Under the pieces are notes generated by a model. That model had not been told where the DNA came from, made no database searches, and saw only the letters and a program-made list of their open reading frames with translations. From NCBI GenBank assembly GCA_965248925.1, contig CBDFLE010000005.1, forward strand, positions 320,001 to 384,000: a stretch of DNA of 64,000 nucleotides, read 5' to 3'. This DNA is from Candidatus Multivoradales bacterium (GTDB taxonomy: Bacteria > Acidobacteriota > Thermoanaerobaculia > Multivoradales > J023). This document shows, piece by piece, positions 45,742-61,052 of the stretch; positions within the stretch are counted from its first letter, which is position 1, and every line of letters starts with the position of its first letter. The position numbers and the translations under genes are program-made.

Positions 45742-46137
45742 ATGGCTGACATCCACCAAGTTCTAGGTGCTCGGCTGCCCGCGGGGACGTTCCAGATTAC
45801 TGTGTTCATCCCGAGCGTAGACCGGGAGTGCCGGCCGATTGGTCAAGAAGTCTGGGCTGAGGAGTGCCTCACGACCCTGGGAACATTATTCCGTGGTGCG
45901 ACAGCCTTTCCCCCAGGGCGGGGAGTGTGGAGGGACGATAGCCAGGGAGGGCGCTTGGTCTTCGACGATACCGTGCTGGTGAACTCGTACGTCAATCCCG
46001 ATGCACTGACCGACGATTCTCTCGCTCTACTGCGGGAATTCCTGCACCGGTTGGGCCGCGAGGCAAACCAAGGCGAGGCGGGTGCCGTGATCGGCGGTAG
46101 CTATTACGGGATTACCGAATTCGACGCTCCCGAGTAG
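45742..46137 (+). CDS. Hypothetical small alpha/beta protein (possibly ferredoxin-like/DUF3574-like fold)
   Basis: Clean 131-aa ORF behind an AT-rich promoter; FRGATAFPPGRGVWRDD. Confidence 0.65.
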   Translation: MADIHQVLGARLPAGTFQITVFIPSVDRECRPIGQEVWAEECLTTLGTLFRGATAFPPGRGVWRDDSQGGRLVFDDTVLVNSYVNPDALTDDSLALLREFLHRLGREANQGEAGAVIGGSYYGITEFDAPE

Positions 46138-46182: not shown

Positions 46183-46509
46183 ATGGCAGATAAGCTGAGT
46201 ACCTTCGAACAGCGCGTCGCTAGCGCTCTGGGAGCGCAACGCTCGGTACCACTCGATGGGCTACCGAGCCAGGGGCCCTTGGATCTGTTACAGCTTCGTA
46301 CAGAGCTCGGGAGGCGCCTACGTTCGACAGGCGGTCGTCCAACCGATCCCGATTGGTCGCTCCGCCGGGTTATTCCGTTCAAGAAGCTAGGCTGGCAGGA
46401 GCTTGAGCAGCTAGCTGCCCGTTGCAGCGAGGAAGGGCAGACGGTGAGCCCGAGTCAATTGGCGGCTTTGTTGATCGAGCGCGGACTGAAGGCACTCAAG
46501 CAGGCTTAG
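46183..46509 (+). CDS. Hypothetical protein with possible C-terminal ribbon-helix-helix DNA-binding region
   Basis: GGAG RBS; STGGRPTDP..RRVIPF...W.ELEQLA...VSPSQLAALLIERGL. Confidence 0.6.
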   Translation: MADKLSTFEQRVASALGAQRSVPLDGLPSQGPLDLLQLRTELGRRLRSTGGRPTDPDWSLRRVIPFKKLGWQELEQLAARCSEEGQTVSPSQLAALLIERGLKALKQA

Positions 46510-46549: not shown

Positions 46550-49480
46550 TCAAGAATCGGGCAATCCTGCGCCGGCCGTCAGCGGCAACTTGTACCCCTC
46601 GCGCACCGGTTTAACCGGTCGCATCAGCCAATGAGGTCGCCGGGTGCCGTCGGGCGAGTGCTCGACTGGCGAGCGGGTCTTGGCCAGCCAATTGTCGAAG
46701 GCTTGGCGTGACTTGGCGGTGTCGACGGCGATGTCGCCGTTGGCGTCGTCGGCAGCGGCTTTGACCACCCGGACCGCCTGATGCCAGCAGTGCATGCCGG
46801 AGATCGGGTCGGGTTGGACGGGGAAGGTGAGGTTCTGATGTACCCCCACGTCGGTCCACCAGATGCGTCGGGTGTCGGGGTCTTTGGAATCGTAGGGTCG
46901 GGCACCGTGGTGGCGGCGGATGGCCCATTGGCTGCCCTGATTCTCAAGCCCCACGGTGGCCACCATTTGGTTCTGGCTCTCGCTTCGATGGCCGGCCAAC
47001 TTCCAGCGCCCCATGTGATGGCTGCACGCCACTACCCCCGGGCGGATACCCTCGGTGACCCACGCCTTGAGCACGAAATGGCCGATCTCGGTTTCCACTC
47101 GCACCAGATCGCCGGTCTCTACGCCGACTCTGGCGGCGTGGCGAGGATGTAACCACAGGGGATTAGTGTGGGCGATCTCATCGAGCCACTTGGCGTTGGC
47201 GCTGCGGGTGTGGATCTGCACCGGCAAGCGGAATGTGGAGATCAAGACGTGCTGATCTGGGTCCATGTTGTGCGGGTGTACATGGCTCTTGATGTAAGTC
47301 GGAACGGAGTATTCCTGCCATCCCCATGCGGCCAAAGTGGAGGAGTAGAACTCCAATTTTCCGCTGGGAGTGGGGAAGCCCTGCAATACCTGATCGCCAG
47401 TGCGGACGCCGACCGCGCGGCGGCCCTCGGCGTCACCATCAGGCGCTCCGGTGGGAGCCATGTTGACCACTGGCGGAGCCGCGGCCCGAGTGTAGACGCG
47501 GCCGAATTCATCTTCCGCCAAGTCCTCTAGCTCGGCGTCTGGAACTTCCCGCTCGTAAACCTGGCCAATGTTGCTCTCGATCTGGAAGGCACCGTAGCGG
47601 CGCATGTATTGCAAAGGTGAAAGCCCCTCTGCCGCAGCTTTCTCGGGTAGGCCGGGAATGGAGTTGTCGAAGATCCAGCCGTAATATTCGTCGACACCGA
47701 GTTTCTCCCCTGGCTTCGCCTTGGACTCGACGAAGGAGCGAATGCCGAGGGCGCCGTCCGGGTCGATGCGCCAGGTGAGTTCGATCCAGAACTCATTCTC
47801 CTCCCAAACCTCGCCAGGATTTACTTGCCGGGTGTCGACTATTACTTCGCCACGGCGCTCTGCGGCGGCGCGCAGCACTGGCTGGCGAAAGCCGATCCAT
47901 TGGCCGTCGTGGGTTTCATAGGAGTGAATGTCGTGGCGCTCCGGCGCGTGGCCCATCGGCAGTACGAAGTCGGCGAAGTAGGCGCTTTCGTTCCAGGTAG
48001 GAGTGAGGGCTATGTACTGGCCGACCTTGCTTTCGTCGCTCAGCATCTCGATCCAGGAGAAGCCGTCTGGGTTGGTCCACACCGGGTTGTAGACCCGAGT
48101 GAAGTAGGTGTCGATGTGACCCCGTCCCTCGCGCACTAAGTGGGGGAGAAGGATCGATAGTTCGTACATCGACAGCGAGTACTCGATGGGCCAGTTGAGT
48201 TCATTCCACTTCTTGGGATGGGTCGGCAGATGGATCGGCCGGGCGACGAACTTGTTCCAGGCGTTGGGATAAGTGCCACCAGGGGTAGCTACCGCGCCGA
48301 GTAGGCAGTTTAGCATGAATAGGGTGCGAGCGACCTGCCAGCCGCCTTCGTTGCCGGCCGCCGCGCTGCGCCAATTGTGGCTGGCGAAGCGGGTGCCGCC
48401 AGTCGCCACCACCCGCGCGATCTCGGCCAGGGTCTGGGCATCGATGCCCGACTCGGCGGCGGCGAAATCGAAAGTGTAGTCCTCGTATTCCGCTTCGAGC
48501 ATGCGCTCAAAGTTCTCGAACGTAACCTCGAGACCAGGATGCACTTGCTTCAGGTACTGCTGCCAATTCCACCAACGCTCGACAAAGGTGCGGTTGTAAA
48601 GTCGCCGACGAATCAAATAGCTGGCGATCGCCAGGTGAATCGCCGCTTCCGAGCCAGGCTGCGGCGCCAGCCAGTAGTCGGCGTGGGTGGCGGTGTTCGA
48701 CAGCCGAGTGTCGAGCACGATCAGTTTGGCGCCGTTCTTCTTGGCTTCGACGATGCGCTGAGCGTGGGGATTGAAGTAGTGCCCGGTTTCGAGGTGCGAG
48801 CTGACCAGGAAGATCACTTTGGCGCGGGCATAGTCCGGGCTCGGCCGGTCGATACCGGACCAGAACTGATAGCCCGCACGGGCGCCTGAGGAGCAAATAT
48901 TGGTGTGAGAGTTGTGGCCGTCGACCCCCCAAGCGGCTAGCAACCGCTCGGTGAACCCGTCCTCACCCGGCCGGCCGACGTGGTACATGATCTCGTTGCG
49001 GCGGTCTTCTTGCATCGCCTTACGGATGCGCCCGGCGATGGTGTCCAGAGCCTCGTCCCAACTTACCCGCTGCCATTTGCCCTCGCCGCGCTCGCCGACT
49101 CGCTTGAGGGGGTAAAGGATGCGGTCCGGGTCCGTAGTCTGGTTGATCGTTGCCGGACCCTTGGCGCAGTTGCGGCCCCGCGAACCAGGATGTTCCGGGT
49201 TGCCCTCGAACTTGCGCACCTCGCCGCTGTCCTGATCGACATAGGCGAGCAAGCCGCAAGCAGATTCACAATTGAAGCAAGTAGTCGGCACCAGGCTGTA
49301 GCGCTTTTCCACCCGCTTGGGCCAAGCGCGCGAGTCCAATTCGACCCAATCGTCCCAGCGTTCTTTGGGCGGAAACGAGGCCAGATGAATCCGGCTGGGG
49401 CCGGGATAGAAGGTTTCGCCACGGGCTTCGGTGGCGGTTCGCGCGGCGCTGACTCGGTCGTTGAGCTTTTTCAGGTTCAT
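46550..49480 (-). CDS. Molybdopterin oxidoreductase catalytic subunit (DMSO reductase family, Psr/Soe/Sre-like), no Tat signal
   Basis: TTCFNCESACG..CAKG [4Fe-4S] motif, SHTNICSS probable Mo-Cys ligand, C-terminal MGD-binding QIHTRS...LWLHP; probable start MNLKKL. Confidence 0.92.
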   Translation of the reverse strand: MNLKKLNDRVSAARTATEARGETFYPGPSRIHLASFPPKERWDDWVELDSRAWPKRVEKRYSLVPTTCFNCESACGLLAYVDQDSGEVRKFEGNPEHPGSRGRNCAKGPATINQTTDPDRILYPLKRVGERGEGKWQRVSWDEALDTIAGRIRKAMQEDRRNEIMYHVGRPGEDGFTERLLAAWGVDGHNSHTNICSSGARAGYQFWSGIDRPSPDYARAKVIFLVSSHLETGHYFNPHAQRIVEAKKNGAKLIVLDTRLSNTATHADYWLAPQPGSEAAIHLAIASYLIRRRLYNRTFVERWWNWQQYLKQVHPGLEVTFENFERMLEAEYEDYTFDFAAAESGIDAQTLAEIARVVATGGTRFASHNWRSAAAGNEGGWQVARTLFMLNCLLGAVATPGGTYPNAWNKFVARPIHLPTHPKKWNELNWPIEYSLSMYELSILLPHLVREGRGHIDTYFTRVYNPVWTNPDGFSWIEMLSDESKVGQYIALTPTWNESAYFADFVLPMGHAPERHDIHSYETHDGQWIGFRQPVLRAAAERRGEVIVDTRQVNPGEVWEENEFWIELTWRIDPDGALGIRSFVESKAKPGEKLGVDEYYGWIFDNSIPGLPEKAAAEGLSPLQYMRRYGAFQIESNIGQVYEREVPDAELEDLAEDEFGRVYTRAAAPPVVNMAPTGAPDGDAEGRRAVGVRTGDQVLQGFPTPSGKLEFYSSTLAAWGWQEYSVPTYIKSHVHPHNMDPDQHVLISTFRLPVQIHTRSANAKWLDEIAHTNPLWLHPRHAARVGVETGDLVRVETEIGHFVLKAWVTEGIRPGVVACSHHMGRWKLAGHRSESQNQMVATVGLENQGSQWAIRRHHGARPYDSKDPDTRRIWWTDVGVHQNLTFPVQPDPISGMHCWHQAVRVVKAAADDANGDIAVDTAKSRQAFDNWLAKTRSPVEHSPDGTRRPHWLMRPVKPVREGYKLPLTAGAGLPDS

Positions 49481-49517
49481 CGATGATCCCGTGGCGTTTT
49501 TCAAGCCGTGGTGCCCC

Positions 49518-51074
49518 TCAAGCCAGCGGCACTGCTTGGCCGGCCTGAACGTAGGCATGCTCGAAGGCGAACAGGCCGAGCAGAGCAGCAAAGGCACTCG
49601 GTATCGGCCCGATCCACGGCGCAGCAACCGCCACAACGGTCAACGCCATGCCGATGCCAAAGAAGTTCTTGAAGCGGCCGGCGATCATCTCATGAGTGGC
49701 CAGCTGAGCGTGGGCGGTGCCGTGGACCAGGGTCACTTCTCCGAGCACCATTAGTAGGTGCACGGCGCTGGCTCCGGCAACTGTCAGCAGCAGGGGCCGC
49801 ACGGCTGCTAGCTCCAGCCATGCCGCCACCGGCAACAGGGCGGCGGCACCGGCGAGCAGTGCTTGCACCAGCAGGTGAGGTGGTAAGAGAGGGTTCTGCC
49901 ACAGATCCCGCGCTTTGGCCTGGGCGAAGAGATAGGCGGTGTAAATCGAGGTCAGCACCGCCAGCGGCAGGCCGACCCAAGCAAGCTGGTTCAGCAGGCC
50001 GCCAAAATCTTGCCAGCTGGCAAGGGCATGCAGGCTCAGCACCGCGCCATAGCCGGTGATGATGTAAGCGCCCTTGACCAACCAACTCTGCCAGTTGCCG
50101 CGGGTGAAGATCATGTAGAAGCGCTCGGGGTGTTCGAGGTCCCACAGCAGCAGACCGCCGGTGAGCCCCAAGAACACGAGGGCGACGACCGGTGCAACGC
50201 AGGTCCAGAGGGTGCTTTCCGGGCTGACAAAGCCGCCAAGCAGCAGCAGCAGCGGCACCAAGTAGGCGCCGGCGGCGACCCCCTTGGTCAGGGTGTAAAG
50301 GCTGACCCGCCAATCCCAGGGTGCTTGGTGCGGCACGTCGTAGGACAACACCGCGGCGACGGAGGAGTTGTTGGACAGCGGTTGCCCAGCGCCGCCTGGA
50401 TGTCCGGAGACGACGCTTGAGCCACCCTGCTTTTGCTCGCTCCACATAAACATGCCGCCACTCGGACGGCGCGCCGCCAGCGGATCGAGAGTCGCCTGGT
50501 GCGCACCGCGGTAGAACAGCTTGGGCCGGGTTTCCTTCTCCGGTCGCCGCACCGCCACCGGTTCGCGGTGAACCTGCCGCGCCACCTTGGAGGTTGGATC
50601 GTTGAGATCCCCCACCAGAATGGCCTCGGTGGGACAGACCACCACGCAAGCCGGTTCCAAGCCGACATCGAGGCGGTGAGCGCAGAAATTGCATTTCTCG
50701 GCCGAGTGATCCTCGGGATTGATGAAGATAGCGTCGTAGGGACAGGCCGCCATGCATGCTTTGCAGCCGAAGCAGGCCGACTTGTCGAAATCAACAATGC
50801 CATCGTCTCGCCGGTACATCGCTCGGGTCGGGCAGGCAATCGTACAAGGCGAGTCTTCGCATTGGTTGCAGCGAGTGACCTGAAAGGCCCGCCGCGCCTG
50901 TGGAAAGGTGCCTACATCGACGTATTTGACATAGGTCCGGTGGACGCCGAGGGGAACGTCATTCTCTGACTTGCAGGCTGTCGAGCAGGCGTGACACCCG
51001 ATGCATTGGGTGTGATCGATCAGCTTCGCCCACTTGACCGGCAAGGCAGCTGGTTGAGCCGCGTCAAGGGGCAT
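49518..51074 (-). CDS. Fused four-cluster Fe-S subunit and NrfD/PsrC membrane anchor
   Basis: CIGCHACSTAC, CNQCEDSPCTIACP, CFGCKACMAACP, KCNFC..CVVVCP; then PWDWRVSLY, DLEHPERF, SWLVKG, YTAYLF..AKARDLW and several TM helices. Confidence 0.92.
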   Translation of the reverse strand: MPLDAAQPAALPVKWAKLIDHTQCIGCHACSTACKSENDVPLGVHRTYVKYVDVGTFPQARRAFQVTRCNQCEDSPCTIACPTRAMYRRDDGIVDFDKSACFGCKACMAACPYDAIFINPEDHSAEKCNFCAHRLDVGLEPACVVVCPTEAILVGDLNDPTSKVARQVHREPVAVRRPEKETRPKLFYRGAHQATLDPLAARRPSGGMFMWSEQKQGGSSVVSGHPGGAGQPLSNNSSVAAVLSYDVPHQAPWDWRVSLYTLTKGVAAGAYLVPLLLLLGGFVSPESTLWTCVAPVVALVFLGLTGGLLLWDLEHPERFYMIFTRGNWQSWLVKGAYIITGYGAVLSLHALASWQDFGGLLNQLAWVGLPLAVLTSIYTAYLFAQAKARDLWQNPLLPPHLLVQALLAGAAALLPVAAWLELAAVRPLLLTVAGASAVHLLMVLGEVTLVHGTAHAQLATHEMIAGRFKNFFGIGMALTVVAVAAPWIGPIPSAFAALLGLFAFEHAYVQAGQAVPLA

Positions 51075-51097
51075 CGGCGACTCATTCTGCGGCACGC

Positions 51098-52369
51098 TCA
51101 GAATCCCCAGGAGTAGCCGATCTCGAGATCCCATTGGCTCATCTCGAGCTCGATCGTTTGGGCACCGGGGAGATCGAGCGGATTGGGACCGACAACGCTG
51201 GTCGAAGGCGCGTGCATCACCGCCAGGCTGAGGGCGCGGCCGCTCTTGAGCTGCTTGGTGAAGCCCACCGTGAAGTGATCTTCCACCACGCCGGGGGCGA
51301 GGATGTTGAAGAGCACTTCGCTAGACCGGATGGGCTGATCGGTGGTCGAGAATCCAAAGCGCCAGGTGCAGGTGTCGCGCTGCCACTGCAAGCCCGCTTT
51401 GTAGATCGTTATGTCCTCCCAGCCGAAGCCGGCACCGCCATCATCCCCAAGTCGAGTGGTGACCAGGTTGGGCAAGAGTGGATTGCTCACCGCCCTACTA
51501 TCGGTGTAGAAGATCTCTTGAATATCGAAGACGAGAGTCAGCTGTTCGGTGAGACCGGCCGCTATGCCCGCGGTCCAAGAGGACGGGATATCGAAGCCGC
51601 CCTGCTCAGCGAACAGTCCGGCGTAGTCGTCGAACTCGCCCATCTTGGTCTCGGTCTGGTACGAGGCTCCGACCGAAAAACGCTCGGTGAGCTGACCCAG
51701 ATAGCCAATCCTGAAACCGAATCCGGTGCTGGTGTCGTGGCCGTTGTTGCTCAGGTTGGCGGTGTCGCTGGAGAACATCCCGAAGGTCTGGATTCCCTGA
51801 ATCTCGAAGCTCTGGTAGGCGAGCAGCGCGGTGAGGCCAAGGGCGTGCTTGCCCCCCCCGAAACGGAAGGCATAGGTCGGCGCGACGAATAGCTGGGCGA
51901 GGTCGACACCTGTTGGCGAGCTGCCGAAGAAGGTGCGGGTCGGATAGTCCGTGTTCATCCCGCCGTTACCGTAAAGACTGAAACCGAAGGTGGAGTTGGT
52001 GCCAACCTGCCAGTTGCCGCCGAAATATGGGATGGCGAAAAACTCCGAGTCGCTGTCCACCTTTCCCTGGGCTAGCCCGAAGGTACCTAGAAAGCCGGTC
52101 GGTGCACCACGCACGGTGTAGCTGCGGCTGGGGCTGAAAGTCGCCAGGCCGGCGTCCCAACGCTTGCCGAGGAAGGCCATCCCCGCCGGATTGGTCGCCG
52201 CCGCCAGCGCGTCTTGGGGTAGCGCCACGCCAGCGCCAGCCAGGCCCTTATTGGCGGTGCCGTAGCCATGAGCGAAGTAGCCGTTGGTCGCCAGGGCATG
52301 GGGAACCCAGCCGAGCGCGCACAGTGTAAGGGTGACGGTTCCTCGGACGATGAGGGCTTTTTTACCCAT
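51098..52369 (-). CDS. FadL/OmpP1/TodX family outer-membrane channel
   Basis: Signal peptide, ATNGYFAHGYG..KGLAGAGVA, NPAGM hatch motif, C-terminal Phe. Confidence 0.9.
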   Translation of the reverse strand: MGKKALIVRGTVTLTLCALGWVPHALATNGYFAHGYGTANKGLAGAGVALPQDALAAATNPAGMAFLGKRWDAGLATFSPSRSYTVRGAPTGFLGTFGLAQGKVDSDSEFFAIPYFGGNWQVGTNSTFGFSLYGNGGMNTDYPTRTFFGSSPTGVDLAQLFVAPTYAFRFGGGKHALGLTALLAYQSFEIQGIQTFGMFSSDTANLSNNGHDTSTGFGFRIGYLGQLTERFSVGASYQTETKMGEFDDYAGLFAEQGGFDIPSSWTAGIAAGLTEQLTLVFDIQEIFYTDSRAVSNPLLPNLVTTRLGDDGGAGFGWEDITIYKAGLQWQRDTCTWRFGFSTTDQPIRSSEVLFNILAPGVVEDHFTVGFTKQLKSGRALSLAVMHAPSTSVVGPNPLDLPGAQTIELEMSQWDLEIGYSWGF

Positions 52370-52546
52370 TGCATGACCTCCTGGGGCGGCTTACTGTCTC
52401 GTGCTTGGCGTGGAGCTGAGTCCTGCCGCCGCTTCCGCGTCAGCCGGTTCATCTCCAGGGCCTTGTTTCACCATATTCGCACCTAGCGATTCGAGGGTAG
52501 ACCGCTCTCTTGGCCCTGTCAAGAGAAGGCGCGGCGGCTGGGAACG

Positions 52547-52924
52547 CTAGCTCTTACTTTTCTCCACTGGCTGCGGGCTGCCGACCAGCATGCTCTGGCG
52601 GACATCAGAAATCAATTTGACATCGGCAGCGGCGCGGTCCAAGAGGGAGTCGCAGACTGCTTGGCAGATACCAAAGACGGTGGTGTCGCCGATCGAATAA
52701 AGGGCGTTGGCACCATCGCGCCGGCGCTCGACCAGGTTGACGGAGCGTAGGATATTGAGGTGTTTTGAAACGTTTGCTTGGCTGCCACCGACCTCGGCGA
52801 GGATTTCGGACACCGATCTCTCCCCCATGTGGAGGGTGTGTAGAATCTTCAAGCGAAAGGGGTTTCCCATCGCCTTGAGTCGCACCGCGATGCGTTCGAG
52901 AATTTCGTCTTGAAGCTCTTGCAC
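52547..52924 (-). CDS. ArsR/SmtB family transcriptional regulator with C-terminal CxxxC
   Basis: LKAMGNPFRLKIL..L..GERSVSEI...SQANVSKHL..L...LV.RRRDG; GICQAVC. Confidence 0.93.
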   Translation of the reverse strand: MQELQDEILERIAVRLKAMGNPFRLKILHTLHMGERSVSEILAEVGGSQANVSKHLNILRSVNLVERRRDGANALYSIGDTTVFGICQAVCDSLLDRAAADVKLISDVRQSMLVGSPQPVEKSKS

Positions 52925-52959: not shown

Positions 52960-53053
52960 GCTATCCTAGCACCTCTTCTCAGAGCTGCCGCCAATACCCT
53001 GAGACGGTTGCCCGGAGGTGAAAATTGACCTAGGTTTAGGATAGCGCTATAGT
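52960..53053. promoter_or_regulatory. Divergent promoter region between arsR and tusA
   Basis: Plus strand TTGACC (53025-53030), 17 bp, TATAGT (53048-53053); palindrome ATAGCGCTAT (53041-53050); minus strand TG-C-TAGGAT near 52963-52971. Confidence 0.65.
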
Positions 53054-53135: not shown

Positions 53136-53372
53136 ATGTCTCAAGTAACAGCTGACCAAGAGATCGACTGTCGCGGCATGAACTGCCCGCTGCCGGTGCT
53201 CAAGACTAAGAAAGCGCTGGTGCCGATGAACGGCGGCCAAGTGCTGAAGGTGACATCGACGGATCCGGGCTCGGTTGCCGACATGGCCGCTTTCAGTCGC
53301 CGTACCGGCCACGAGCTGCTCGACCAGAGTGCCGGCGATGGCGAGTACGTTTTCTTTTTCCGGCGCAAATAA
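53136..53372 (+). CDS. tusA: Sulfur carrier protein TusA
   Basis: IDCRGMNCPLPVLKTKKAL (CPxP motif), STDPGS; AAGGAG RBS. Confidence 0.95.
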   Translation: MSQVTADQEIDCRGMNCPLPVLKTKKALVPMNGGQVLKVTSTDPGSVADMAAFSRRTGHELLDQSAGDGEYVFFFRRK

Positions 53373-53383
53373 AGGAGGGGAAA

Positions 53384-53899
53384 GTGGCTGAAGAACGTCC
53401 CAAACGCCTTGCCCTCATCGCCTCTCAAGGAACTCTCGACTGGGCTTATCCTCCCTTCATTCTGGCCTCGACCGCCGCGGCTCTCGATATGGAAGTGGCG
53501 GTTTTCTTCACTTTCTACGGCCTGCCCCTGCTGTGTAAGGACTTGAAGGCGAAGGTCTCGCCGCACAGCAATCCGGCGATGCCGATGAAGATGCCCTTCG
53601 GTTCCCAGGGTTTCCAGGGTATCGAGTGGAACATCCCCAACGCCATCTCCGGCAACGTGCCGGGCTTCGATACCTTCGCCACCTCGATGATGAAGAAGAG
53701 CTTCGCCAACAAAGGGGTCGCCACTATCGAGGAGCTGCGCGAGGCCTGCGTCGATCTCGACGTCAAGTTGATCGCCTGCCAAATGACCATGGATGTCTTC
53801 GGCTTCTCCCGCGATGAATTCATCGATGGTATCGAACTCGGCGGTGCCGCTACTTTCCTCGAGTTCGCTGCCGACTCCGACATCAGTCTGTTCGTCTAA
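53384..53899 (+). CDS. dsrE2: DsrE2-type sulfurtransferase
   Basis: GTLDWAYPPFILASTAAALD..V.VFFTFYGL, ACQMTMD. Confidence 0.88.
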   Translation: MAEERPKRLALIASQGTLDWAYPPFILASTAAALDMEVAVFFTFYGLPLLCKDLKAKVSPHSNPAMPMKMPFGSQGFQGIEWNIPNAISGNVPGFDTFATSMMKKSFANKGVATIEELREACVDLDVKLIACQMTMDVFGFSRDEFIDGIELGGAATFLEFAADSDISLFV

Positions 53900-53914: not shown

Positions 53915-54688
53915 GTGAGCGGAAGAGAGAACCGAGCGCGCCTGCTAGACCTTGGCGAGGTCAGCGCGCTGCGTTCTCAGAGTCTCTTTCACGCCGTTGC
54001 CGCGGTGATGCAGCCACAGGACGACCCCGCGCTTATTCTGCTGCGCCCCGGCGCGGCGCTGGTCACCATCGGCCGCGACTATGCCGAAGATACCCTTGGC
54101 GGTGCATTGATCACAGCTGAAGGATTGCCGGTGTTTCGCTCCCTGGCGCCCGGCGAGTTGGCCTTTCACGACTCGGGTCAACTCTCCTTCTACCTTCTGG
54201 TCGGGGCAGGGCGGATTGACGAATTCGGACTTGGCTCGCCGCCCGCCAACTCAGTAGAGGCCGTGGCTCGGGCGCCGATCAGCGCTTGCCGCGCGCTGGG
54301 ATTCGAAGCGCAGGCAAGCCCGCCGAACAAGATCGTAGTGGCGGGTCGAGCGATTGGTACCGTCGAGCTAGTGAGGGTCGACGAGGTTTCGCTGCTCCGC
54401 GGCCGGCTGTGGCTGGAGGTGGATGGCGACAGGCTCGGACGGATCGAGGAGCAATTCACCACCGACTCAACCACCTCTTTCAGTCAGCATTTGGCGCCCG
54501 GAAAAGGATTTCCGGAAGTCGCCGATGCTCTGGTGGCGGCGATCGAGAAAGAACACCAGCTCGATTTGATTCCCTCGATGCCGACGCCAGCCGAACTCGA
54601 CGCGCTGCTCGACTGGGACACTCGGCTGGCCGGTAGTGGATTGCGAACAGGTTTTTCGAGCAGTGAAACGGACCGGATTCCCGCTTAG
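53915..54688 (+). CDS. Lipoate-protein ligase-like protein with degenerate catalytic motifs
   Basis: LLDLG.V...RSQ..FHAVA N-terminus and xxHD..QL; RRxxGGG replaced by RSLAPGE and NDI..GxKI by NKI..GRAI. Confidence 0.7.
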   Translation: MSGRENRARLLDLGEVSALRSQSLFHAVAAVMQPQDDPALILLRPGAALVTIGRDYAEDTLGGALITAEGLPVFRSLAPGELAFHDSGQLSFYLLVGAGRIDEFGLGSPPANSVEAVARAPISACRALGFEAQASPPNKIVVAGRAIGTVELVRVDEVSLLRGRLWLEVDGDRLGRIEEQFTTDSTTSFSQHLAPGKGFPEVADALVAAIEKEHQLDLIPSMPTPAELDALLDWDTRLAGSGLRTGFSSSETDRIPA

Positions 54689-54696
54689 GAGATCGC

Positions 54697-55068
54697 ATGG
54701 ACGAAGGAAGTGTAGTGATTTTTGTGACCTCGGGTCCCGACACCCCGCAGCGTTGCGCGACGCCGTTCTACATGGCCAACATTGCCACTGCGATGGACAA
54801 CGAGGCTGAGTTGATATTCCAGATCGATGGTGTGCTGCTGATGAAAAAGGGGGTCGCCGAGGAACTTTACGCCAAAGAAGGTGGCAAGAAAGTCATCGAC
54901 TTTATTCGCGAGGCCAAGGAATCCGGGGCGACCATGAGCGTTTGCTCGGCGGCGCTCCAGCTGCACGACATGACCGAGGACGATCTGATCGAAGAATGCG
55001 ACGGGGTGGTCGGCGCCGCCTACATGACGGATCAAGGACTCGACGCCGATATGGTGCTGTGTTACTGA
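54697..55068 (+). CDS. DsrE family sulfur-transfer protein
   Basis: VTSGPDTPQRCATPF..A..A.AMD, DGV.L, MSVCSAAL, VGAA. Confidence 0.85.
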   Translation: MDEGSVVIFVTSGPDTPQRCATPFYMANIATAMDNEAELIFQIDGVLLMKKGVAEELYAKEGGKKVIDFIREAKESGATMSVCSAALQLHDMTEDDLIEECDGVVGAAYMTDQGLDADMVLCY

Positions 55069-55090
55069 TCCGCTCACTCTTTGGAGTTCG

Positions 55091-55555
55091 ATGATGGCTG
55101 AGGTGAAGAACTGTCTCCTGCCCGATGACTTGCGCTATCACGTCAAGTTCAATGTTTGGCTGCGCGACAACAGCGATGGAACCTACGACCTGGGAATGAC
55201 CGACATCGCCCAGACGATGGCCGGCGCGATCATCCATTGCCGGCCGAAAAAAGTTGGCAAGACGGTCAAAGCGGGACGCAGCGTGGCCACCGTCGAGAGC
55301 GGCAAGTGGGTAGGGCCGGTGAAGACCCCTTTCGCCGGCAAGATCGTCGCTCGCAACGAACTCACCGAGAGCGAGCCGACGGTGCTCAACAAGAGCCCTT
55401 ATCAACAAGGCTGGATCGTGCGCATTGAGCCCAGCGATGGCGCGGCGGTCTTCGAGGCGCTGCTAGAGGCTGAGCTAGCGAGTGGAGAGTTCGCCACCTA
55501 CATGGCCGAGAACGAGCTGGGCGAGTGCATCCACTGCGAAGGGTTCGATGGGTGA
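55091..55555 (+). CDS. lbpA: Lipoate-binding protein (GcvH-like) of the sHdr system
   Basis: SVATVESGKWVGP lipoyl-Lys motif, CLLPDDL.Y, GMTDIAQ, PY..GWI; position within the sHdr cluster. Confidence 0.88.
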   Translation: MMAEVKNCLLPDDLRYHVKFNVWLRDNSDGTYDLGMTDIAQTMAGAIIHCRPKKVGKTVKAGRSVATVESGKWVGPVKTPFAGKIVARNELTESEPTVLNKSPYQQGWIVRIEPSDGAAVFEALLEAELASGEFATYMAENELGECIHCEGFDG

Positions 55556-55829
55556 GCTGCTCATGAGGGTCTTCACCCATCCTGCTTGTTCAGGCTGTTC
55601 GGCGGCGGTGCGCCGGGCCTGGGAGCTGAACCAGGCGCAACCTGAGATCGAGCTGCGGACGGTTAGCTCGGTGGAGAAGGCGGGGCTTGCAGAAGCGCAG
55701 CGAGAGGGCATCAAGACCATCCCGACGATCATCTTCTCGTCGCCAGCGGGCGAGCAGCGGCGCTTCGTGGGCACGCCCCAAGCCGGTGCTCTCGCATCCT
55801 TCGCCAGTACCCTTTCATCCCCGGTCTAA
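55548..55829 (+). CDS. Thioredoxin/glutaredoxin-like protein
   Basis: FTHPACSGC (CxxC), IKTIPT cis-Pro loop, RFVGTP. Confidence 0.85.
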   Translation: MGELLMRVFTHPACSGCSAAVRRAWELNQAQPEIELRTVSSVEKAGLAEAQREGIKTIPTIIFSSPAGEQRRFVGTPQAGALASFASTLSSPV

Positions 55830-55842
55830 AGGAACAGCAGCG

Positions 55843-56562
55843 ATGGATCCGATATACGCCGACGCCAAGTTTCAGGATGTCCCCTACGAAGAGAAGAAGG
55901 CCCTCTTCGATGAAGTCAAGGCCGACATGCGCTGGGAAACGACCCTCTACGGCTGCTACGAATGCGGTATTTGCGTCGCCGCCTGCCCGTCGGCTCGTTT
56001 CTACGATTTCAGCCCGCGAGTCTACGCCCAAGTCATGGCGCGAGAAGATGTTCACACCTTCTATGAGCTGCTCAATGAGTCGGTCTGGGATTGCTCGCAG
56101 TGCTTCTCCTGCACCCGCTGCCCGCGACAGAACAACCCCGGTGGAATCATCACCATCATGCGCGAGGTGGCGGTCAACCATGGCTTGGAGACCGCGAAAG
56201 ACGCCCTCAAGGCATACAGCCGCATTATCTACAAGATCATGTCGACCGGCACCCAGGTGGCGCCCGACATGCTGCAACCCGACTTCTTCCCCGATTGGGG
56301 GCCCGACGTGCAGCAGGTCTCCGACAATCTGGATGTGTGGCGGCGGGCGATTCCCCCTGAGACCTTGCACACCACCGAGCTGGCCTGGGATGTGGCCGAG
56401 AAGACTAGAGTCGAGCTATTCATGATCTGGAAGCTCACTGGCAACCTGGAAATGATCGAGCAGATCGATGAAGGCATCTTCATGATTCTCGAAGAGGTTA
56501 TGGAAGAGCTACTCGACGAACATGGCTTCGACATCGACGACTTCGACTCTGTCATTGACTGA
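55843..56562 (+). CDS. shdrC1: sHdr heterodisulfide reductase-like subunit C1
   Basis: CYECGICVAACP, WDCSQCFSCTRCPRQNNPGG, FPDWG. Confidence 0.9.
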   Translation: MDPIYADAKFQDVPYEEKKALFDEVKADMRWETTLYGCYECGICVAACPSARFYDFSPRVYAQVMAREDVHTFYELLNESVWDCSQCFSCTRCPRQNNPGGIITIMREVAVNHGLETAKDALKAYSRIIYKIMSTGTQVAPDMLQPDFFPDWGPDVQQVSDNLDVWRRAIPPETLHTTELAWDVAEKTRVELFMIWKLTGNLEMIEQIDEGIFMILEEVMEELLDEHGFDIDDFDSVID

Positions 56563-56588
56563 CTATGTGATCGACTGAGGTAACCACC

Positions 56589-57791
56589 ATGAGCATCTTG
56601 CCGATTGTCGGTGCTGGCGGCCCGACCAAGGCCAAAGACCGAGTCTTCGACCGCAAAGGTCATATGCCCGAGGAGTACTACAAAGATCAGCTCTTCGAGC
56701 TCGAAGCCAAGGGGGAGTTGATCATTCATCGGATCAGCGAAGCCCAGGCCCCGGTGGAACTCGACAACAAGTTCGGGCGCAAGAAGAAGATCGCCATCGA
56801 CAACACCTGGCACCATAAAAGCTGTGGCCAGTGCGGTCATATTCCAGGCTATTCGACCTCGATCTTCTGGCTCATCCGCGAGCTTGGCTTGACCTATCAC
56901 GATCCCAAGGAGCAGACCTCCTGCACGGCTTGGAACTACTACGCTTCCTCGACCTCCAACCCCGCCGCCCAAGCGGCGGTGGCGCTGCGCAATTTTGCCC
57001 AAGCCTACGAACACGGCTTCTATCCGATCATCCACTGCGGCACCAGCTATGGCCACTACAAAGAGGTGCGTGAAGAGCTGATCCATCATCCGGAGCTGCG
57101 GGACCAGACCCGGCGGGTGATGGAGAAGCTCGGTAAGCCGATGGTCTTTCCCGAGGAGATCGTCCATTACTCAGAGTGGGTGCATGCGATGCGCCACCGG
57201 ATCCACGAGCGCCAGACTCTCGATCTGAGCAATGTCACGGTGACCGTGCATCCGGCCTGCCACTACCACAAGCTGGTGGCCGAGGACGCGATCTACGACC
57301 GTGAACTCTACGACGGTCAGCGCACCGCGGTGGTCAGCGCCCTGGTCAATGCCCTGGGCGCCAACCTGGCCGACTATTCGACTTTCCACGATTGCTGCGG
57401 TTTCGGCTTCCGCCACATCCTGGTGAGCCGCGATTTCTCCCGCTCTTTCGCCACCCTGCGCAAGATCGAGAAGATGAAAGAAGAAGCCAATCCCGATGTC
57501 ACTCTGACCCACGACACCGGCTGTGTGACCACCCTGGATAAGAGCCAGTTTGCCGCTCAGGCCCACAACCGCAATGTCGGCATCCCGGTGATGTCCGATG
57601 CTCAATTCGCCGCGTTGGCGATGGGCGCGCACCCCTACAAGGTCTGCCAGCTGCACTGGCACGGAGTCGACATGAAGCCGTTGCTCGAGAAAATGGGCAT
57701 CGACCACGCCGCCGCTTGGGCTGAGTTCGAAGAGGTGGCGGCAAAGATCAAAGCTGGCGACATGGATTTCATGTCGTGGGAGGACTGCTGA
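56589..57791 (+). CDS. shdrB1: sHdr subunit B1 (CCG domains)
   Basis: HHKSCGQCGHIPGY, QTSCTAWNY, IHCGTSYG, HPACH, DCCGFGFRH, HDTGC. Confidence 0.92.
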   Translation: MSILPIVGAGGPTKAKDRVFDRKGHMPEEYYKDQLFELEAKGELIIHRISEAQAPVELDNKFGRKKKIAIDNTWHHKSCGQCGHIPGYSTSIFWLIRELGLTYHDPKEQTSCTAWNYYASSTSNPAAQAAVALRNFAQAYEHGFYPIIHCGTSYGHYKEVREELIHHPELRDQTRRVMEKLGKPMVFPEEIVHYSEWVHAMRHRIHERQTLDLSNVTVTVHPACHYHKLVAEDAIYDRELYDGQRTAVVSALVNALGANLADYSTFHDCCGFGFRHILVSRDFSRSFATLRKIEKMKEEANPDVTLTHDTGCVTTLDKSQFAAQAHNRNVGIPVMSDAQFAALAMGAHPYKVCQLHWHGVDMKPLLEKMGIDHAAAWAEFEEVAAKIKAGDMDFMSWEDC

Positions 57792-58858
57792 TGGAGCACC
57801 ATCCGATTCTCATCATTGGCGCCGGACCGGCGGGCCTGGAAGCGGCGCGAGGGGCGGCGGAACTGGGCTACCCGGTGTTGCTGGTGGAGAAAGAGACCCT
57901 CCTCGGCGGTTCACCGATCCTCTCCTCCTATGCCGCCTTGACGCCCAATATGGAAGACGCCGAGACGGCAATGAAACGCATGGCCGATGGCGCCAGCGGC
58001 GAGTCGTTGGTCGACGTCCGCATCGAGACCACGGTCATCGCCGCCAGTGGCGACGCCCCTGAGATCAGCGTCACCCTGGCGGGACCCGGCGGTGAGGAGC
58101 AAGTCACCGTTGGCGCAGTGATCGTCTGCACCGGCTTCCAGCATTTCGATCCCGGCCGCGAAACCCAGATGTACGGCTACTACGAGTACGACGACGTCAT
58201 CACCCTGGTCGATGTCGAGAAGATGCTCAAAGCCGGCAAGTTTGTGCGCCCCTCGACCGGCGAGACGCCGAAACGAGTGTGCTTCATCCAATGCGTTGGC
58301 AGCCGCGACCGGCAGATCGGCAACTTCTGGTGCTCCAAGGTCTGCTGCGGCATTGCCTGTAAGGAAGCCATCGAGATCCGCGAGCATGTGCCCGACTGCC
58401 AGGTCTTCGTCTTCTACATTGACATGCGGATGTACAGTTTCTGGGAAGACCAGCTCTATTGGAAAGCGCAAGAGAAGCACAAAGTGCAGTTCATACGCGG
58501 CATCGTTACCGAGATCACCCGCCGCGGCGACACGGTGGTGATCAAGGGCGAGGATACAACCATGGGCCGGCCGGTCGAGGTCGCCATGGACGTGGTGGTG
58601 CTGTCGGTCGGCATGGAACCCAGCGAGGGCACCACCGAGATGGCCAAGATGTTCGAGCTACCGCTCGAATCGCACCGTTTCATCGAGACCACCGGCGGGG
58701 CGCTCAACACCGTCTCGACCACGCGGCCGGGGATCTATGTCGCCGGCTGCGCCTCCGGTCCCGCTGATCTCGAAGATTCGGTGTCGGCGGCTGGTGCGGC
58801 GGTAATGAAAGCCGCTGGTTTCTTGCGCAAGCATGCGCTCACCGCCGAAACCGTCTGA
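57791..58858 (+). CDS. shdrA: sHdr flavoprotein subunit A (short HdrA)
   Basis: GAGPAG, GFQHFDPG, FIQCVGSRD..IGN.WCSKVCC, FYIDMR, GPAD; TGATG coupling to B1. Confidence 0.93.
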   Translation: MEHHPILIIGAGPAGLEAARGAAELGYPVLLVEKETLLGGSPILSSYAALTPNMEDAETAMKRMADGASGESLVDVRIETTVIAASGDAPEISVTLAGPGGEEQVTVGAVIVCTGFQHFDPGRETQMYGYYEYDDVITLVDVEKMLKAGKFVRPSTGETPKRVCFIQCVGSRDRQIGNFWCSKVCCGIACKEAIEIREHVPDCQVFVFYIDMRMYSFWEDQLYWKAQEKHKVQFIRGIVTEITRRGDTVVIKGEDTTMGRPVEVAMDVVVLSVGMEPSEGTTEMAKMFELPLESHRFIETTGGALNTVSTTRPGIYVAGCASGPADLEDSVSAAGAAVMKAAGFLRKHALTAETV

Positions 58859-58876
58859 GCGAGGCAGAAACCAGCT

Positions 58877-59725
58877 GTGCTGCACACTCCCGTCAACATT
58901 GGTCAATCGGCCGCCGGTCCGGCCGCTAGGGTGGTCGATGCCGAGGCCGCCCTCGAGTTCATGAAAGAGGCCACCAAAGTGGCCACCGGTACTGAACTCG
59001 AAGACATCGGCCAACGGCTCGAGCTGAAGAGCGCCTTGTTCGGTGAGTTGCTAGCCGAGGAGCGCCTGGAGACCTTCGACGAGGAGGATCTGAAGTGTCT
59101 GCTACGCCATATCTTCACCCTCAAACGCAAGGCCAAGCGCCTGCTGCGGCGCAACGATTTGGTCACGATACGGCAGGGTTTCCAAGATTTGCTCTACGGC
59201 AGCGATGCGATTGCTGAGCGTTTCGATCGGTTCACCGCCGGTATCCAGGGTTTCGAGCCGGCGATGAAAGTTTCGTTGGCCAGCGAGGTGTTGCATTTCA
59301 CCGATCCCGGCAGCCACTGGCTGTGGACCTATTGGATTTGGAACCCCAAGACCAGCACCGGTGCTTTGCCCCTAGTGACTCACCAAGAGGGCGTCGACCT
59401 GTCCGGCACCAGTGCTGGGGTGATTTACGACCAGGTCGGCCAGGCCCTGGTGCAAGTCAATCAAGCGGGCCATGAGGTCGGCTACTCGCGGTCGGGCAGA
59501 GGCTTATTCGGCACCGATGTGTTCCTTGCCTGCGTCTACGCGGTTTACATGTTCACCGTTTTCAAAGTGAAGCTGTCGCAGGAATTCAACCGCATTTTGC
59601 CAGAGCTGCCGCAGCTCGTCGAACGGGTGTTGGGAGTCCACGCCATGGGAGAAGCCGATGCCGGAGAGACCAATGCCGGAGAGACCAATGCCGGAGAGAC
59701 CCATGCCGGAGAGACCAATGCCTGA
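58877..59725 (+). CDS. shdrH: Conserved hypothetical protein in the sHdrH position
   Basis: Directly follows shdrA; EVLHF..P..WLWT.WIW.P.T.TGALPL, DVFLACVYAVY. Confidence 0.8.
   Translation: MLHTPVNIGQSAAGPAARVVDAEAALEFMKEATKVATGTELEDIGQRLELKSALFGELLAEERLETFDEEDLKCLLRHIFTLKRKAKRLLRRNDLVTIRQGFQDLLYGSDAIAERFDRFTAGIQGFEPAMKVSLASEVLHFTDPGSHWLWTYWIWNPKTSTGALPLVTHQEGVDLSGTSAGVIYDQVGQALVQVNQAGHEVGYSRSGRGLFGTDVFLACVYAVYMFTVFKVKLSQEFNRILPELPQLVERVLGVHAMGEADAGETNAGETNAGETHAGETNA
59658..59722 (+). repeat. 15-bp tandem repeat ATGCCGGAGAGACC(A/C) x4 plus partial copy at the shdrH/shdrB3 junction
   Basis: Units start at 59658, 59673, 59688, 59703 and 59718 (partial); they encode (AGETN)n in shdrH and (MPERP)n in shdrB3. 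Confidence 0.95.
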
Positions 59726-61043: not shown

Positions 61044-61052
61044 AGAAGCAGG

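What the first reader, a model, noticed from the sequence alone, without database searches (positions are those of the whole stretch)
46550..52924. Divergent FadL channel + Fe-S/NrfD fusion + Tat-less Mo enzyme: candidate uptake and terminal module for the sHdr system
Seen: arsR, a fadL-like gene, a fused PsrB/PsrC-type gene and a ~976-aa Mo-bisPGD subunit share a strand and face away from tusA. The Mo subunit has no twin-arginine leader. Known: FadL channels pass hydrophobic solutes, and Tat-less Psr-family enzymes such as SoeABC face the cytoplasm and oxidise sulfite using quinone. Inferred: a self-contained pathway in which hydrophobic sulfur (S8, organic polysulfide or thiol) enters via FadL, passes TusA/DsrE to sHdr, and the Mo enzyme handles sulfite or polysulfide. 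I do not recognise this combined island as a described unit.
Basis: partly seen in the sequence, partly recalled or inferred. Interest (0 to 1): 0.78.

Follow-up and report, generated by a model that had tools for sequence, protein, structure and literature searches.

The report
Sulfur-oxidation island with outer-membrane channel
The four genes are real and belong to a sulfur-oxidation island: the inward-facing molybdenum enzyme is a widespread, already described but never assayed type that probably turns sulfite into sulfate, and the fresh lead is an outer-membrane channel that keeps turning up beside sulfur genes.

Summary
On the minus strand lie arsR, a FadL-fold outer-membrane channel, a 4x[4Fe-4S]/NrfD fusion and a 976-aa Mo-bisPGD subunit with no Tat leader. 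They face away from tusA-dsrE2-lplA-dsrE3-lbpA and a type II sHdr set with etfAB.

The molybdoenzyme is not new. The fused, Tat-less, two-gene format is in print as PSRLC3 / psrBC-psrA, proposed to oxidise sulfite but never assayed in what I read. This scan has noted it at least 21 times. It is 70-78% identical across Acidobacteriota, Gemmatimonadota, Actinomycetota and Chloroflexota. Its neighbours are sulfite-making systems: a persulfide dioxygenase-rhodanese fusion in 22 of 80 loci and TusA in 16 of 80. From the other side, 9 of 80 type II sHdr loci carry it.

The pathway is modular, not one fixed unit. Among 200 genomes of the same class, 31 had the enzyme, 18 had the channel, none had both, and none had sHdr.

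The best lead is the channel. In 12 of 15 relatives its orthologue ends a periplasmic psrABC-YeeE-type operon. Three other FadL copies in this genome sit by lipases instead.

I could not obtain a canonical SoeA sequence, so that phylogeny remains undone.

The parts
52547..52924 (-). ArsR/SmtB-family regulator, divergent from tusA, with a C-terminal CxxxC pair
   Evidence: Pfam HTH_5; NCBIfam HTH_metalloreg 77 bits against cut-off 55; the BigR equivalog scores only 45.6 against 155. The CxxxC pair is kept in orthologues beside sHdr loci.
51098..52369 (-). FadL/TodX-family outer-membrane channel with a signal peptide; mature N-terminus TNGYF
   Evidence: Toluene_X 60.4 bits. AlphaFold model pLDDT 85.6; Foldseek top hits are E. 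coli FadL 3pgs and TodX 3bs0, TM 0.70. N60-P61-A62 is invariant in 21 orthologues.
49518..51134 (-). Fusion of a four-cluster ferredoxin (PsrB/SoeB-like) with an NrfD/PsrC-type quinone-site membrane anchor; probable start at 51074
   Evidence: Fer4_11 plus NrfD. Four Cys motifs and about 8 hydrophobic segments by a crude hydropathy scan. Orthologue N-termini. Adjacent to the A gene in 68 of 80 loci.
46550..49480 (-). Mo-bisPGD catalytic subunit, 976 aa, no Tat leader, N-terminal [4Fe-4S] site (PSRLC3/Soe-like)
   Evidence: 70-78% identical relatives in several phyla. Sits in a 31-row clade apart from Tat-bearing Psr/Phs-like proteins.
53025..53053 (+). Sigma-70-like promoter match upstream of tusA
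   Evidence: 10 of 12 hexamer matches. The count of such sites in the region is not above chance, so this is a lead only.
53136..53372 (+). tusA (CPLP motif)
   Evidence: ORF translation. Orthologues at 66-74% identity head related sHdr loci.
53384..53899 (+). dsrE2 sulfur carrier
   Evidence: NCBIfam SulfCarrDsrE2 214 bits against cut-off 210.
53915..54688 (+). Lipoate-protein ligase-like gene
   Evidence: Pfam LplA-B_cat 4.7e-10.
54697..55555 (+). DsrE3-type carrier (54697-55068) and lipoate-binding protein LbpA (55091-55555)
   Evidence: Pfam DsrE and GCV_H.
55687..61043 (+). sHdrC1 (55687-56562), sHdrB1 (56589-57791), sHdrA (57776-58858), sHdrH-position gene (58877-59725), sHdrB3 (59658-61043; ferredoxin and CCG domains fused)
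   Evidence: Domain content and order. They match the type II definition quoted in PMC11094781.
61053..63999 (+). etfB, etfA and the start of the Fe-S oxidoreductase in the emo position; it runs off the window
   Evidence: Pfam ETF and ETF_alpha; Fer4 families.

Best explanation
The locus is a modular island for oxidising sulfane sulfur in the cytoplasm.

The plus-strand genes (TusA, DsrE2, DsrE3, LbpA and type II sHdr with EtfAB) oxidise carrier-bound sulfane sulfur to sulfite. This function is known for the system from the literature.

The minus-strand pair is a PSRLC3-type enzyme: a fused Fe-S/NrfD subunit plus a Tat-less Mo-bisPGD subunit. It sits on the cytoplasmic face of the membrane. 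It most likely oxidises that sulfite to sulfate and passes the two electrons through five [4Fe-4S] clusters to the quinone site of the NrfD domain. It would thus work like SoeABC. This step is inferred.

The FadL-fold protein most likely lets a poorly soluble sulfur compound (elemental sulfur or an organic polysulfane) through the outer membrane. This is inferred from context only.

The ArsR-type protein probably controls the divergent promoters. This is also inferred.

The modules are combined differently in different lineages, so the island is an assembly of known parts and not one fixed system.
For: Anatomy.

Enzyme family and context:
- The BC fusion lies next to A in 68 of 80 genome loci.
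- Neighbours over those 80 loci are a TorD/NarJ-like chaperone in 29, an MBL-rhodanese (persulfide dioxygenase type) fusion in 22, TusA in 16, DsrE2 in 17, and a SulP sulfate-type permease in 6.
- On Rhodococcus jostii pRHL3 the order is DsrE-TusA-fusion-A, divergent from MBL hydrolases and ArsR. On the Thermomicrobium roseum megaplasmid a CsoR-family regulator precedes the pair.
- Seen from the sHdr side, the enzyme is within 10 kb in 9 of 80 type II loci. It occurs in three arrangements: divergent upstream, downstream on the same strand, and downstream on the opposite strand. The sHdr-adjacent copies fall in at least five subclades of the enzyme tree.

Literature:
- sHdr-LbpA oxidises sulfane sulfur to sulfite (PMC11094781, passages).
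- The fused psrBC-psrA format is cytoplasmic in green sulfur bacteria and is proposed to oxidise sulfite (PMC3906813, passages; PMC9324843, figure legend; PMC5473276, passage).

FadL:
- The fold is confirmed.
- Orthologues lie beside arsR/tusA-sHdr in L002, L054, L144, L145, L146 and L148. They lie in tusA-dsrE2-fadL-BC-A strings in L006 and L008.
- In 12 of 15 loci from genomes of the same class the orthologue ends a psrA(Tat)-psrB-psrC-Sulf_transp-Sulf_transp/rhodanese-fadL operon. All 15 have a Sulf_transp gene nearby.
- Control: the genome's three other FadL paralogues have no sulfur genes within 8 kb and sit by lipase and hydrolase genes.
- A FadL-family protein of Chlorobaculum tepidum (CT2230) was proposed in a preprint to carry hydrophobic sulfur chains (10.1101/172254, passage).
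Against: - No member of the fused family has been assayed in anything I could read. The substrate rests on gene context alone.
- In 71 of the 80 sHdr loci no enzyme gene was seen, although many contigs are short. In 14 of the 20 loci with full flanks it is absent within 10 kb.
- In the sample of 200 genomes of the same class, the enzyme (31 genomes) and the FadL orthologue (18 genomes) never occur together, and sHdrB1 was found in none.
- In L146 the FadL gene sits by arsR/tusA-sHdr with no enzyme next to it.
- This genome has no Sulf_transp (YeeE-type) gene, so the step across the inner membrane is unexplained.
- PDO-rhodanese fusions can yield thiosulfate as well as sulfite (recalled from work on CstB, not checked here), so thiosulfate is not excluded as the substrate.
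- The characterised relative from Aquifex was first isolated as a sulfur reductase (bSreA in PMC10100899), so the direction of the reaction is not fixed by family.
- No canonical SoeA or green-sulfur PSRLC3 sequence could be placed in my tree.
Confidence: 0.58

Rival explanations
1. The Mo enzyme works in the reductive direction or on another sulfur species. It would be a cytoplasm-facing sulfur, polysulfide, thiosulfate or tetrathionate oxidoreductase (bSreA-like) that takes electrons from quinol, not a sulfite dehydrogenase.
For: - The nearest scoring NCBIfam model is thiosulfate reductase PhsA (207.7 bits), and the nearest solved structure is the Thermus Psr-type enzyme 2vpw.
- PMC10100899 (passages) groups the bacterial sulfur reductase bSreA with SoeA in one lineage.
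- The TusA/DsrE2 neighbours carry sulfane sulfur, not sulfite.
- PDO-rhodanese fusions may give thiosulfate (recalled).
Against: - The PhsA score is far below that model's cut-off of 694.
- In the tree the protein is separated (SH-aLRT 97) from Salmonella PhsA and from the Tat-bearing Psr-like proteins.
- Both recurrent partners, sHdr and PDO, are oxidative and release sulfite in the cytoplasm (PMC11094781).
- SulP-type permeases next to the pair in 6 loci suit sulfate as the product.
Confidence: 0.2
2. The FadL channel has no role in sulfur uptake. It would import a fatty acid such as octanoate, or lipoate, for the lipoate-binding protein of the sHdr system. Alternatively it is a hitch-hiking neighbour.
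For: - Solved FadL-family members carry fatty acids or aromatic hydrocarbons.
- The island encodes a lipoate-protein ligase-like gene and LbpA.
- In L002 a fatty-acid-hydroxylase-family gene lies between fadL and the fusion gene.
Against: - In 12 of 15 loci from relatives, the orthologue ends a psrABC/Sulf_transp operon. None of this island's genes, LbpA and the lipoate ligase among them, matched in 13 of those 15 loci; the two other matches were unrelated.
- The channel is kept in two unrelated sulfur contexts.
- The genome's three other FadL paralogues are the ones that sit by lipases.
Confidence: 0.22
3. The adjacency of the minus-strand genes and the sHdr cluster is an accident of horizontal transfer, with no functional coupling.
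For: - sHdrB1 was found in none of 200 other genomes of the class.
- An rve-family integrase lies 1 kb beyond the Mo gene, at 44360-45481.
- The enzyme tree mixes phyla.
- The modules occur apart in most genomes.
Against: - The same arsR-fadL / tusA-sHdr layout recurs in L002, L054, L144, L145, L146 and L148.
- The enzyme lies beside type II sHdr in three different gene orders and in at least five enzyme subclades. Chance does not easily explain that.
Confidence: 0.1

Closest known systems
PSRLC3 / psrBC-psrA 'cytoplasmic PSR' of green sulfur bacteria, Marine Group A, Marine Group II, Haladaptatus and Caldilinea (Frigaard & Bryant 2008 and Gregersen 2011 as cited; Wright et al. 2013, PMC3906813)
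   Same: Two-gene format, PsrB-PsrC fusion, BC-before-A order, no Tat signal, and a proposed role oxidising sulfite made by a cytoplasmic sulfur-oxidising system. My relatives match the taxa in that paper: haloarchaea and Chloroflexi with the fusion, and a Campylobacterota relative with a separate NrfD gene.
   Different: Here the sulfite source would be type II sHdr, not reverse Dsr. The host is an acidobacterium. No green-sulfur sequence could be aligned, so orthology is inferred from architecture and taxon set, not tested.
SoeABC sulfite:quinone oxidoreductase (Allochromatium vinosum, Aquifex aeolicus, Ruegeria pomeroyi)
   Same: A cytoplasm-facing Mo-bisPGD enzyme with an N-terminal Fe-S site, a four-cluster subunit and an NrfD-type anchor in inverted orientation (PMC8076601, passages). 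The proposed reaction is the same.
   Different: SoeB and SoeC are separate proteins. The NrfD review lists SoeC only in Proteobacteria, Clostridia and Aquificae. A sediment study reported SoeABC as not detected (PMC12345210), although Gemmatimonadota genomes named like its bins carry this family at 70-74% identity. The sequence relation to SoeA was not tested.
Type II sHdr cluster (shdrC1B1AHB3-etfAB-emo) with TusA and DsrE carriers (PMC11094781)
   Same: Gene content and order on the plus strand.
   Different: The passages I read do not mention a FadL channel or a linked molybdoenzyme.
FadL / TodX / TbuX / CymD outer-membrane channels; CT2230 of Chlorobaculum tepidum
   Same: Same Pfam family and fold, a signal peptide, and the NPA motif of the hatch domain (motif recalled for FadL; invariant here). 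CT2230 was proposed to move hydrophobic sulfur chains (10.1101/172254).
   Different: Only 14-18% identical to the solved members. The substrate is unknown. Its genomic partners are sulfur enzymes, not fatty-acid or aromatic catabolism genes.
Periplasmic PsrABC / PhsABC polysulfide and thiosulfate reductases
   Same: Same enzyme superfamily and subunit logic. Relatives in the same class carry a Tat-bearing PsrABC next to the FadL orthologue.
   Different: The window's enzyme lacks Tat, has the B and C subunits fused, and falls in a separate clade.

Membership tests
PSRLC3 / psrBC-psrA cytoplasmic PSR | PsrB and PsrC fused in one gene, giving a two-gene complex | tested here: met
   Fer4_11 plus NrfD in one 538-aa ORF. 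The same fusion lies next to A in 68 of 80 loci.
PSRLC3 / psrBC-psrA cytoplasmic PSR | Catalytic subunit without a Tat signal; BC gene upstream of A | tested here: met
   N-terminus read directly and compared with Tat-bearing relatives. No signal-prediction program was run.
PSRLC3 / psrBC-psrA cytoplasmic PSR | Groups in a tree with the green-sulfur PSRLC3 catalytic subunit | not testable with these tools
   No green-sulfur sequence could be fetched by name. Only the overlap of taxa with PMC3906813 was seen.
SoeABC | Three separate subunits SoeA, SoeB and SoeC | tested here: not met
   The B and C parts are fused.
SoeABC | Groups in a tree with A. vinosum SoeA (D3RNN8) | not testable with these tools
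My tree holds no SoeA.
SoeABC | Sulfite-dependent quinone reduction | not testable with these tools
   Needs an enzyme assay.
PhsA, TtrA, ArrA, DmsA/YnfE, NapA, NarG and FdhA equivalogs (NCBIfam) | Score at or above the curated cut-off | tested here: not met
   The best is PhsA, 207.7 bits against 694. All 24 listed models are far below their cut-offs.
FadL/TodX (PF03349) | Profile score above cut-off, and a beta-barrel with an N-terminal hatch | tested here: met
   60.4 bits against 29.7. Model pLDDT 85.6; FadL and TodX are the top Foldseek hits at TM 0.70.
Type II sHdr | shdrC1B1AHB3 and etfAB in one syntenic cluster (definition in PMC11094781) | tested here: met
   Domain content and order at 55687-62755. 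The same order occurs in related loci.
BigR-type sulfite or persulfide-sensing ArsR repressor | NCBIfam equivalog score | tested here: not met
   45.6 bits against cut-off 155. Only the generic ArsR/SmtB model passes.

The most novel reading that the evidence does not exclude
This FadL subfamily is a dedicated outer-membrane gate for water-insoluble zero-valent sulfur (S8 or organic polysulfanes). It would serve both a periplasmic Psr-type reductase route with YeeE-type importers and a cytoplasmic TusA/DsrE2-sHdr-PSRLC3 oxidative route. That would answer how Gram-negative cells get solid sulfur across the outer membrane.
Probability: 0.35. Interest if true: 0.72.

Novelty: new variant of a known kind. 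Interest (0 to 1): 0.48.

Why it matters
Two points matter.

First, the fused inward-facing molybdoenzyme is very common. It was found in 122 of 301 sampled Gemmatimonadetes-class genomes and in 31 of 200 genomes of this acidobacterial class. Routine annotation names it only 'molybdopterin-dependent oxidoreductase', and one sediment survey reported SoeABC as not detected (PMC12345210). If it is a sulfite dehydrogenase, sulfite oxidation is under-counted in soil and sediment surveys. One assay in a culturable carrier such as Rhodococcus jostii RHA1 or Thermomicrobium roseum would settle this.

Second, how insoluble sulfur crosses the outer membrane is an open question. A FadL-type channel that recurs in two unrelated sulfur gene contexts is a concrete candidate that can be tested by knockout.

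Tried and rejected
- Canonical SoeA for the phylogeny could not be obtained. The top 120 homologues carried only generic names. Cluster look-ups gave no useful names. The ESM Atlas gave generic names. Plasmid records gave no proteobacterial SoeA: Agrobacterium and Thioclava hits are a different ferredoxin/FAD-linked enzyme, and Azoarcus KH32C is a Tat-bearing BCA-TorD set in an arsenic context.
- A class-level search centred on a record titled 'Gammaproteobacteria' turned out to sample the same class as a Palauibacter (Gemmatimonadota) genome.
- Plasmid records cannot serve as centres for searches of relatives.
- The search for shorter proteins with the fusion returned mostly contig-end fragments. 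A few short hits on long contigs (P0162, P0181, P0203) may be genuine split forms; I did not follow them up.
- P0243 and P0274, first taken for possible SoeA-like sister groups, are a divergent member and a partly matching protein of the same family.
- No inverted repeat was found in the arsR-tusA spacer.
- Terminator-like sites in the operon all lie inside genes and are no more frequent than in shuffles.
- Gregersen et al. 2011 is not held in the library.
None turned up an assay of the fused enzyme, or a paper describing the FadL link with sHdr or Psr beyond the C. tepidum preprint. These are narrow searches of an open-access library only.
- Supplementary tables were closed, for example Table S1 of PMC11094781, which may list which type II sHdr genomes carry Soe-like genes.
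- Complex prediction was not used; no binding claim is made.


Full report
**What is there.** The window is G000:C5:320001-384000 of a 7.98-Mb, 6-contig genome that is 96.9% complete. Four genes lie on the minus strand:
- an ArsR/SmtB regulator (52547-52924);
- a FadL/TodX-family gene (51098-52369);
- a gene fusing a four-cluster ferredoxin to an NrfD/PsrC membrane anchor (49518-51134);
- a 976-aa Mo-bisPGD subunit (46550-49480).

Across a 211-bp spacer, the plus strand carries tusA, dsrE2, a lipoate-ligase-like gene, a DsrE3-type gene, lbpA and then sHdrC1, B1, A, an H-position gene and B3 (ferredoxin and CCG fused). etfB, etfA and an Fe-S oxidoreductase that runs off the window follow. This is the type II sHdr layout as defined in PMC11094781.

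**No export signals.** The catalytic subunit begins MNLKKLNDRVSAAR...ETFYPGPSRIHLASFPPKERWDDW. This N-terminus has no twin arginine and no hydrophobic core, and relatives from several phyla share it. More distant relatives carry textbook RRxFLK leaders. So does the 745-aa PsrA-like protein of genomes in the same class (MAFTRREFIRIGG...). The fusion protein probably starts at Met21. Its orthologues begin 10-25 residues before the KWAKVIDH..C motif and have no signal. With an N-terminal cytoplasmic ferredoxin domain and about eight hydrophobic segments (a crude hydropathy scan), the complex should face the cytoplasm. I ran no dedicated signal or topology predictor.

**The enzyme family.**
- The A subunit has thousands of relatives. 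The best 120 are 73-86% identical and carry only generic names.
- In species-representative genomes, more than 541 stretches matched. The best 80 (69-78% identical) are titled Thermoanaerobaculia, Pyrinomonadaceae, Gemmatimonadota, Actinomycetota, Chloroflexota and Binatia.
- The fusion gene is next to A in 68 of these 80 loci. Most of the other 12 lack upstream sequence.
- The family occurs in 122 of 301 genomes of a Gemmatimonadetes-type class and in 31 of 200 other genomes of the window's own class. One of the 31, G477, is flagged as unpublished.
- At 50% clustering the family collapses to a handful of full-length representatives. The next relatives are 32-38% identical, and most that I inspected bear Tat signals.
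- No NCBIfam equivalog is reached: PhsA scores 207.7 against 694, TtrA 102.7 against 1750, and ArrA 107.3 against 1600.
- In a 51-row tree the window's protein sits in a 31-row clade (SH-aLRT 97). That clade is apart from Salmonella PhsA, E. coli YnfE, an Azoarcus Tat-bearing enzyme and the class's own Tat-bearing PsrA. Inside it, a tight 12-row clade (support 100) mixes four phyla, which points to horizontal spread. The tree used a quick search with LG+G4, and several long branches were flagged. It contains no SoeA.

**Is the enzyme new? No.** A lead from earlier notes of this scan sent me to the literature.
- Wright et al. 2013 (PMC3906813, passages read) describe psrBC fusions with a downstream psrA in green sulfur bacteria, Marine Group A, Marine Group II, Haladaptatus and Caldilinea, with split forms in Sulfurimonas. 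They state that the cytoplasmic PSR of green sulfur bacteria was proposed to oxidise sulfite made by Dsr (citing Gregersen 2011).
- PMC5473276 speaks of '2 genes encoding PSRLC3'.
- PMC9324843 (figure legend) and PMC6338057 (passage) call PSRLC3 an inferred sulfite oxidase.
- My plasmid hits mirror that taxon set: Thermomicrobium roseum (60%), Rhodococcus jostii pRHL3 (57%), Natrinema and other haloarchaea with the fusion (50-53%), and Sulfurovum with a separate NrfD gene (37%).
- Wells et al. 2023 (PMC10100899, passages) describe a large bSreA/SoeA lineage of low sequence diversity, which fits this family's behaviour.

I could not align a green-sulfur or a canonical SoeA sequence. Membership is therefore inferred from architecture and taxon overlap, not shown.

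Routine surveys may miss this family. PMC12345210 reports SoeABC as not detected in Bohai Sea sediment. Yet Gemmatimonadota genomes whose isolate names match that study's stations (L026, L043, L046, L056, L067, L074) carry the family at 70-74% identity.

**What the enzyme probably does.** I clustered the neighbours over the 80 enzyme-centred loci. This gave:
- a TorD/NarJ-like chaperone in 29;
- a metallo-beta-lactamase-rhodanese fusion (persulfide dioxygenase type), usually directly downstream, in 22;
- TusA in 16 and DsrE2 in 17;
- a DUF445 protein in 13;
- a SulP permease in 6 and a single rhodanese in 6.

R. jostii pRHL3 shows DsrE-TusA-fusion-A-Mrp/NBP35, divergent from two MBL hydrolases, DUF202 genes, ArsR and thioredoxin. 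T. roseum has a CsoR-family regulator in front.

From the sHdr side, I scanned metagenomes with sHdrB1 and kept 80 loci, 45 of which show etf genes. The enzyme is within reach in 9 of them (L148, L151, L180, L197, L205, L208, L210, L220, L222), and in 6 of the 20 loci with full 10-kb flanks. It occurs in three different arrangements. Those copies fall in at least five subclades of the tree.

Both recurrent partners, sHdr and persulfide dioxygenase, release sulfite in the cytoplasm. A quinone-reducing sulfite dehydrogenase is therefore the most economical reading. It remains an inference. A reductive or thiosulfate-directed role is not excluded.

**The island is modular.** In 200 other genomes of the class:
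- the enzyme was found in 31;
- the FadL orthologue (49-56% identical) in 18;
- both together in none;
- sHdrB1 in none.

The nearest full copies of the island are L002 and L054 (both titled Thermoanaerobaculia) and the metagenome contig L148. In L146 fadL-arsR faces tusA-sHdr with no enzyme beside it. An rve integrase (44360-45481) and a small RHH pair lie just beyond the Mo gene. The sHdr island was probably acquired horizontally.

This genome's TorD-like chaperone (49% identical to the usual neighbour) lies about 670 kb away. A PDO-rhodanese-like gene (34%) lies on another contig.

**The FadL channel.** This is the part I find most interesting.
- The protein has a signal peptide ending A-T-N-G-Y, and N60-P61-A62 is invariant in 21 orthologues.
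- The model (pLDDT 85.6) matches E. coli FadL and P. putida TodX at TM 0.70.
- Orthologues at 56-61% identity sit beside arsR/tusA-sHdr (L002, L054, L144, L145, L146, L148) or inside tusA-dsrE2-fadL-fusion-A strings (L006, L008).
- In 15 loci from genomes of the class that lack the enzyme, 12 show one same-strand operon: psrA(Tat)-psrB-psrC-Sulf_transp-Sulf_transp/rhodanese-fadL. All 15 have a Sulf_transp (YeeE/YedE-type) gene nearby.
- As a control, the genome's three other FadL paralogues have none of the 24 sulfur-gene queries within 8 kb. Their neighbours include a GDSL lipase and an alpha/beta hydrolase.

The subfamily is thus tied to sulfur enzymes in two unrelated contexts, one periplasmic and reductive, the other cytoplasmic and oxidative.

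A 2017 preprint proposed the same idea for CT2230 of Chlorobaculum tepidum (10.1101/172254, passage). Earlier notes of this scan report FadL-type channels beside sulfur-carrier genes in other phyla. I found no experimental test.

How the compound would cross the inner membrane here is open, because the genome has no Sulf_transp gene.

**The regulator.** The ArsR protein passes only the generic ArsR/SmtB model and fails the BigR equivalog. It lacks the usual helix-2 cysteine; that position is recalled for BigR, not tested. It keeps a C-terminal CxxxC pair shared by regulators next to many type II sHdr loci. I found no palindrome in the spacer.

**Verdict.** The Mo enzyme is a cytoplasm-facing terminal enzyme, probably for sulfite, and it is recurrently but facultatively linked to type II sHdr. 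The FadL idea gains independent support. The enzyme itself is a described, widespread type, and the island is an assembly of movable modules.

Noticed in passing
window 44360-45481 (+), 45742-46137 (+), 46183-46509 (+): An rve-family integrase/transposase and a small two-gene pair (an unknown 131-aa protein plus a 108-aa protein with a weak RHH_5 match, below its cut-off) lie directly beyond the 3' end of the Mo gene. This may mark an edge of a horizontally acquired island.
   Followed up: partly
L002:7490-8335 (+): In the closest full copy of the island, a fatty-acid-hydroxylase-family (PF04116) membrane protein gene lies between fadL and the Fe-S/NrfD fusion gene. It is absent from the window.
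   Followed up: partly
L012, L014, L015, L027-L031, L073 (Pyrinomonadaceae-type loci): The fusion gene and the A gene are separated by 1.3-3.4 kb of variable inserts. In L031 these are GNAT, DinB-family and unknown ORFs. Elsewhere the two genes abut.
   Followed up: partly
P0249 and P0305: Two relatives, 46% and 36% identical to the A subunit and over 1100 aa long, carry clear Tat leaders and form the sister group of the Tat-less clade. The family may therefore have both orientations.
   Followed up: no
L082 (R. jostii pRHL3) and L085 (Natrinema halophilum plasmid): An Mrp/NBP35 Fe-S carrier ATPase gene directly follows the A gene in an actinobacterium and in a haloarchaeon. It stands in the place where a TorD-like chaperone gene lies in 29 of the 80 loci.
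   Followed up: no
window 52547-52924 and the ArsR orthologues: ArsR-type regulators beside type II sHdr loci share a C-terminal CxxxC (or single Cys) motif. This is a possible redox or persulfide-sensing site, placed differently from that of BigR-type sensors.
   Followed up: partly
L006:772-2040 and 182-658: A second, distant FadL-like gene (27% identical) follows a second DsrE2-like gene a few kb upstream of the tusA-dsrE2-fadL-BC-A string.
   Followed up: no
G000:C5:1038097-1038927: The TorD/NarJ-like chaperone that usually sits beside this enzyme is encoded about 670 kb away in this genome.
   Followed up: no
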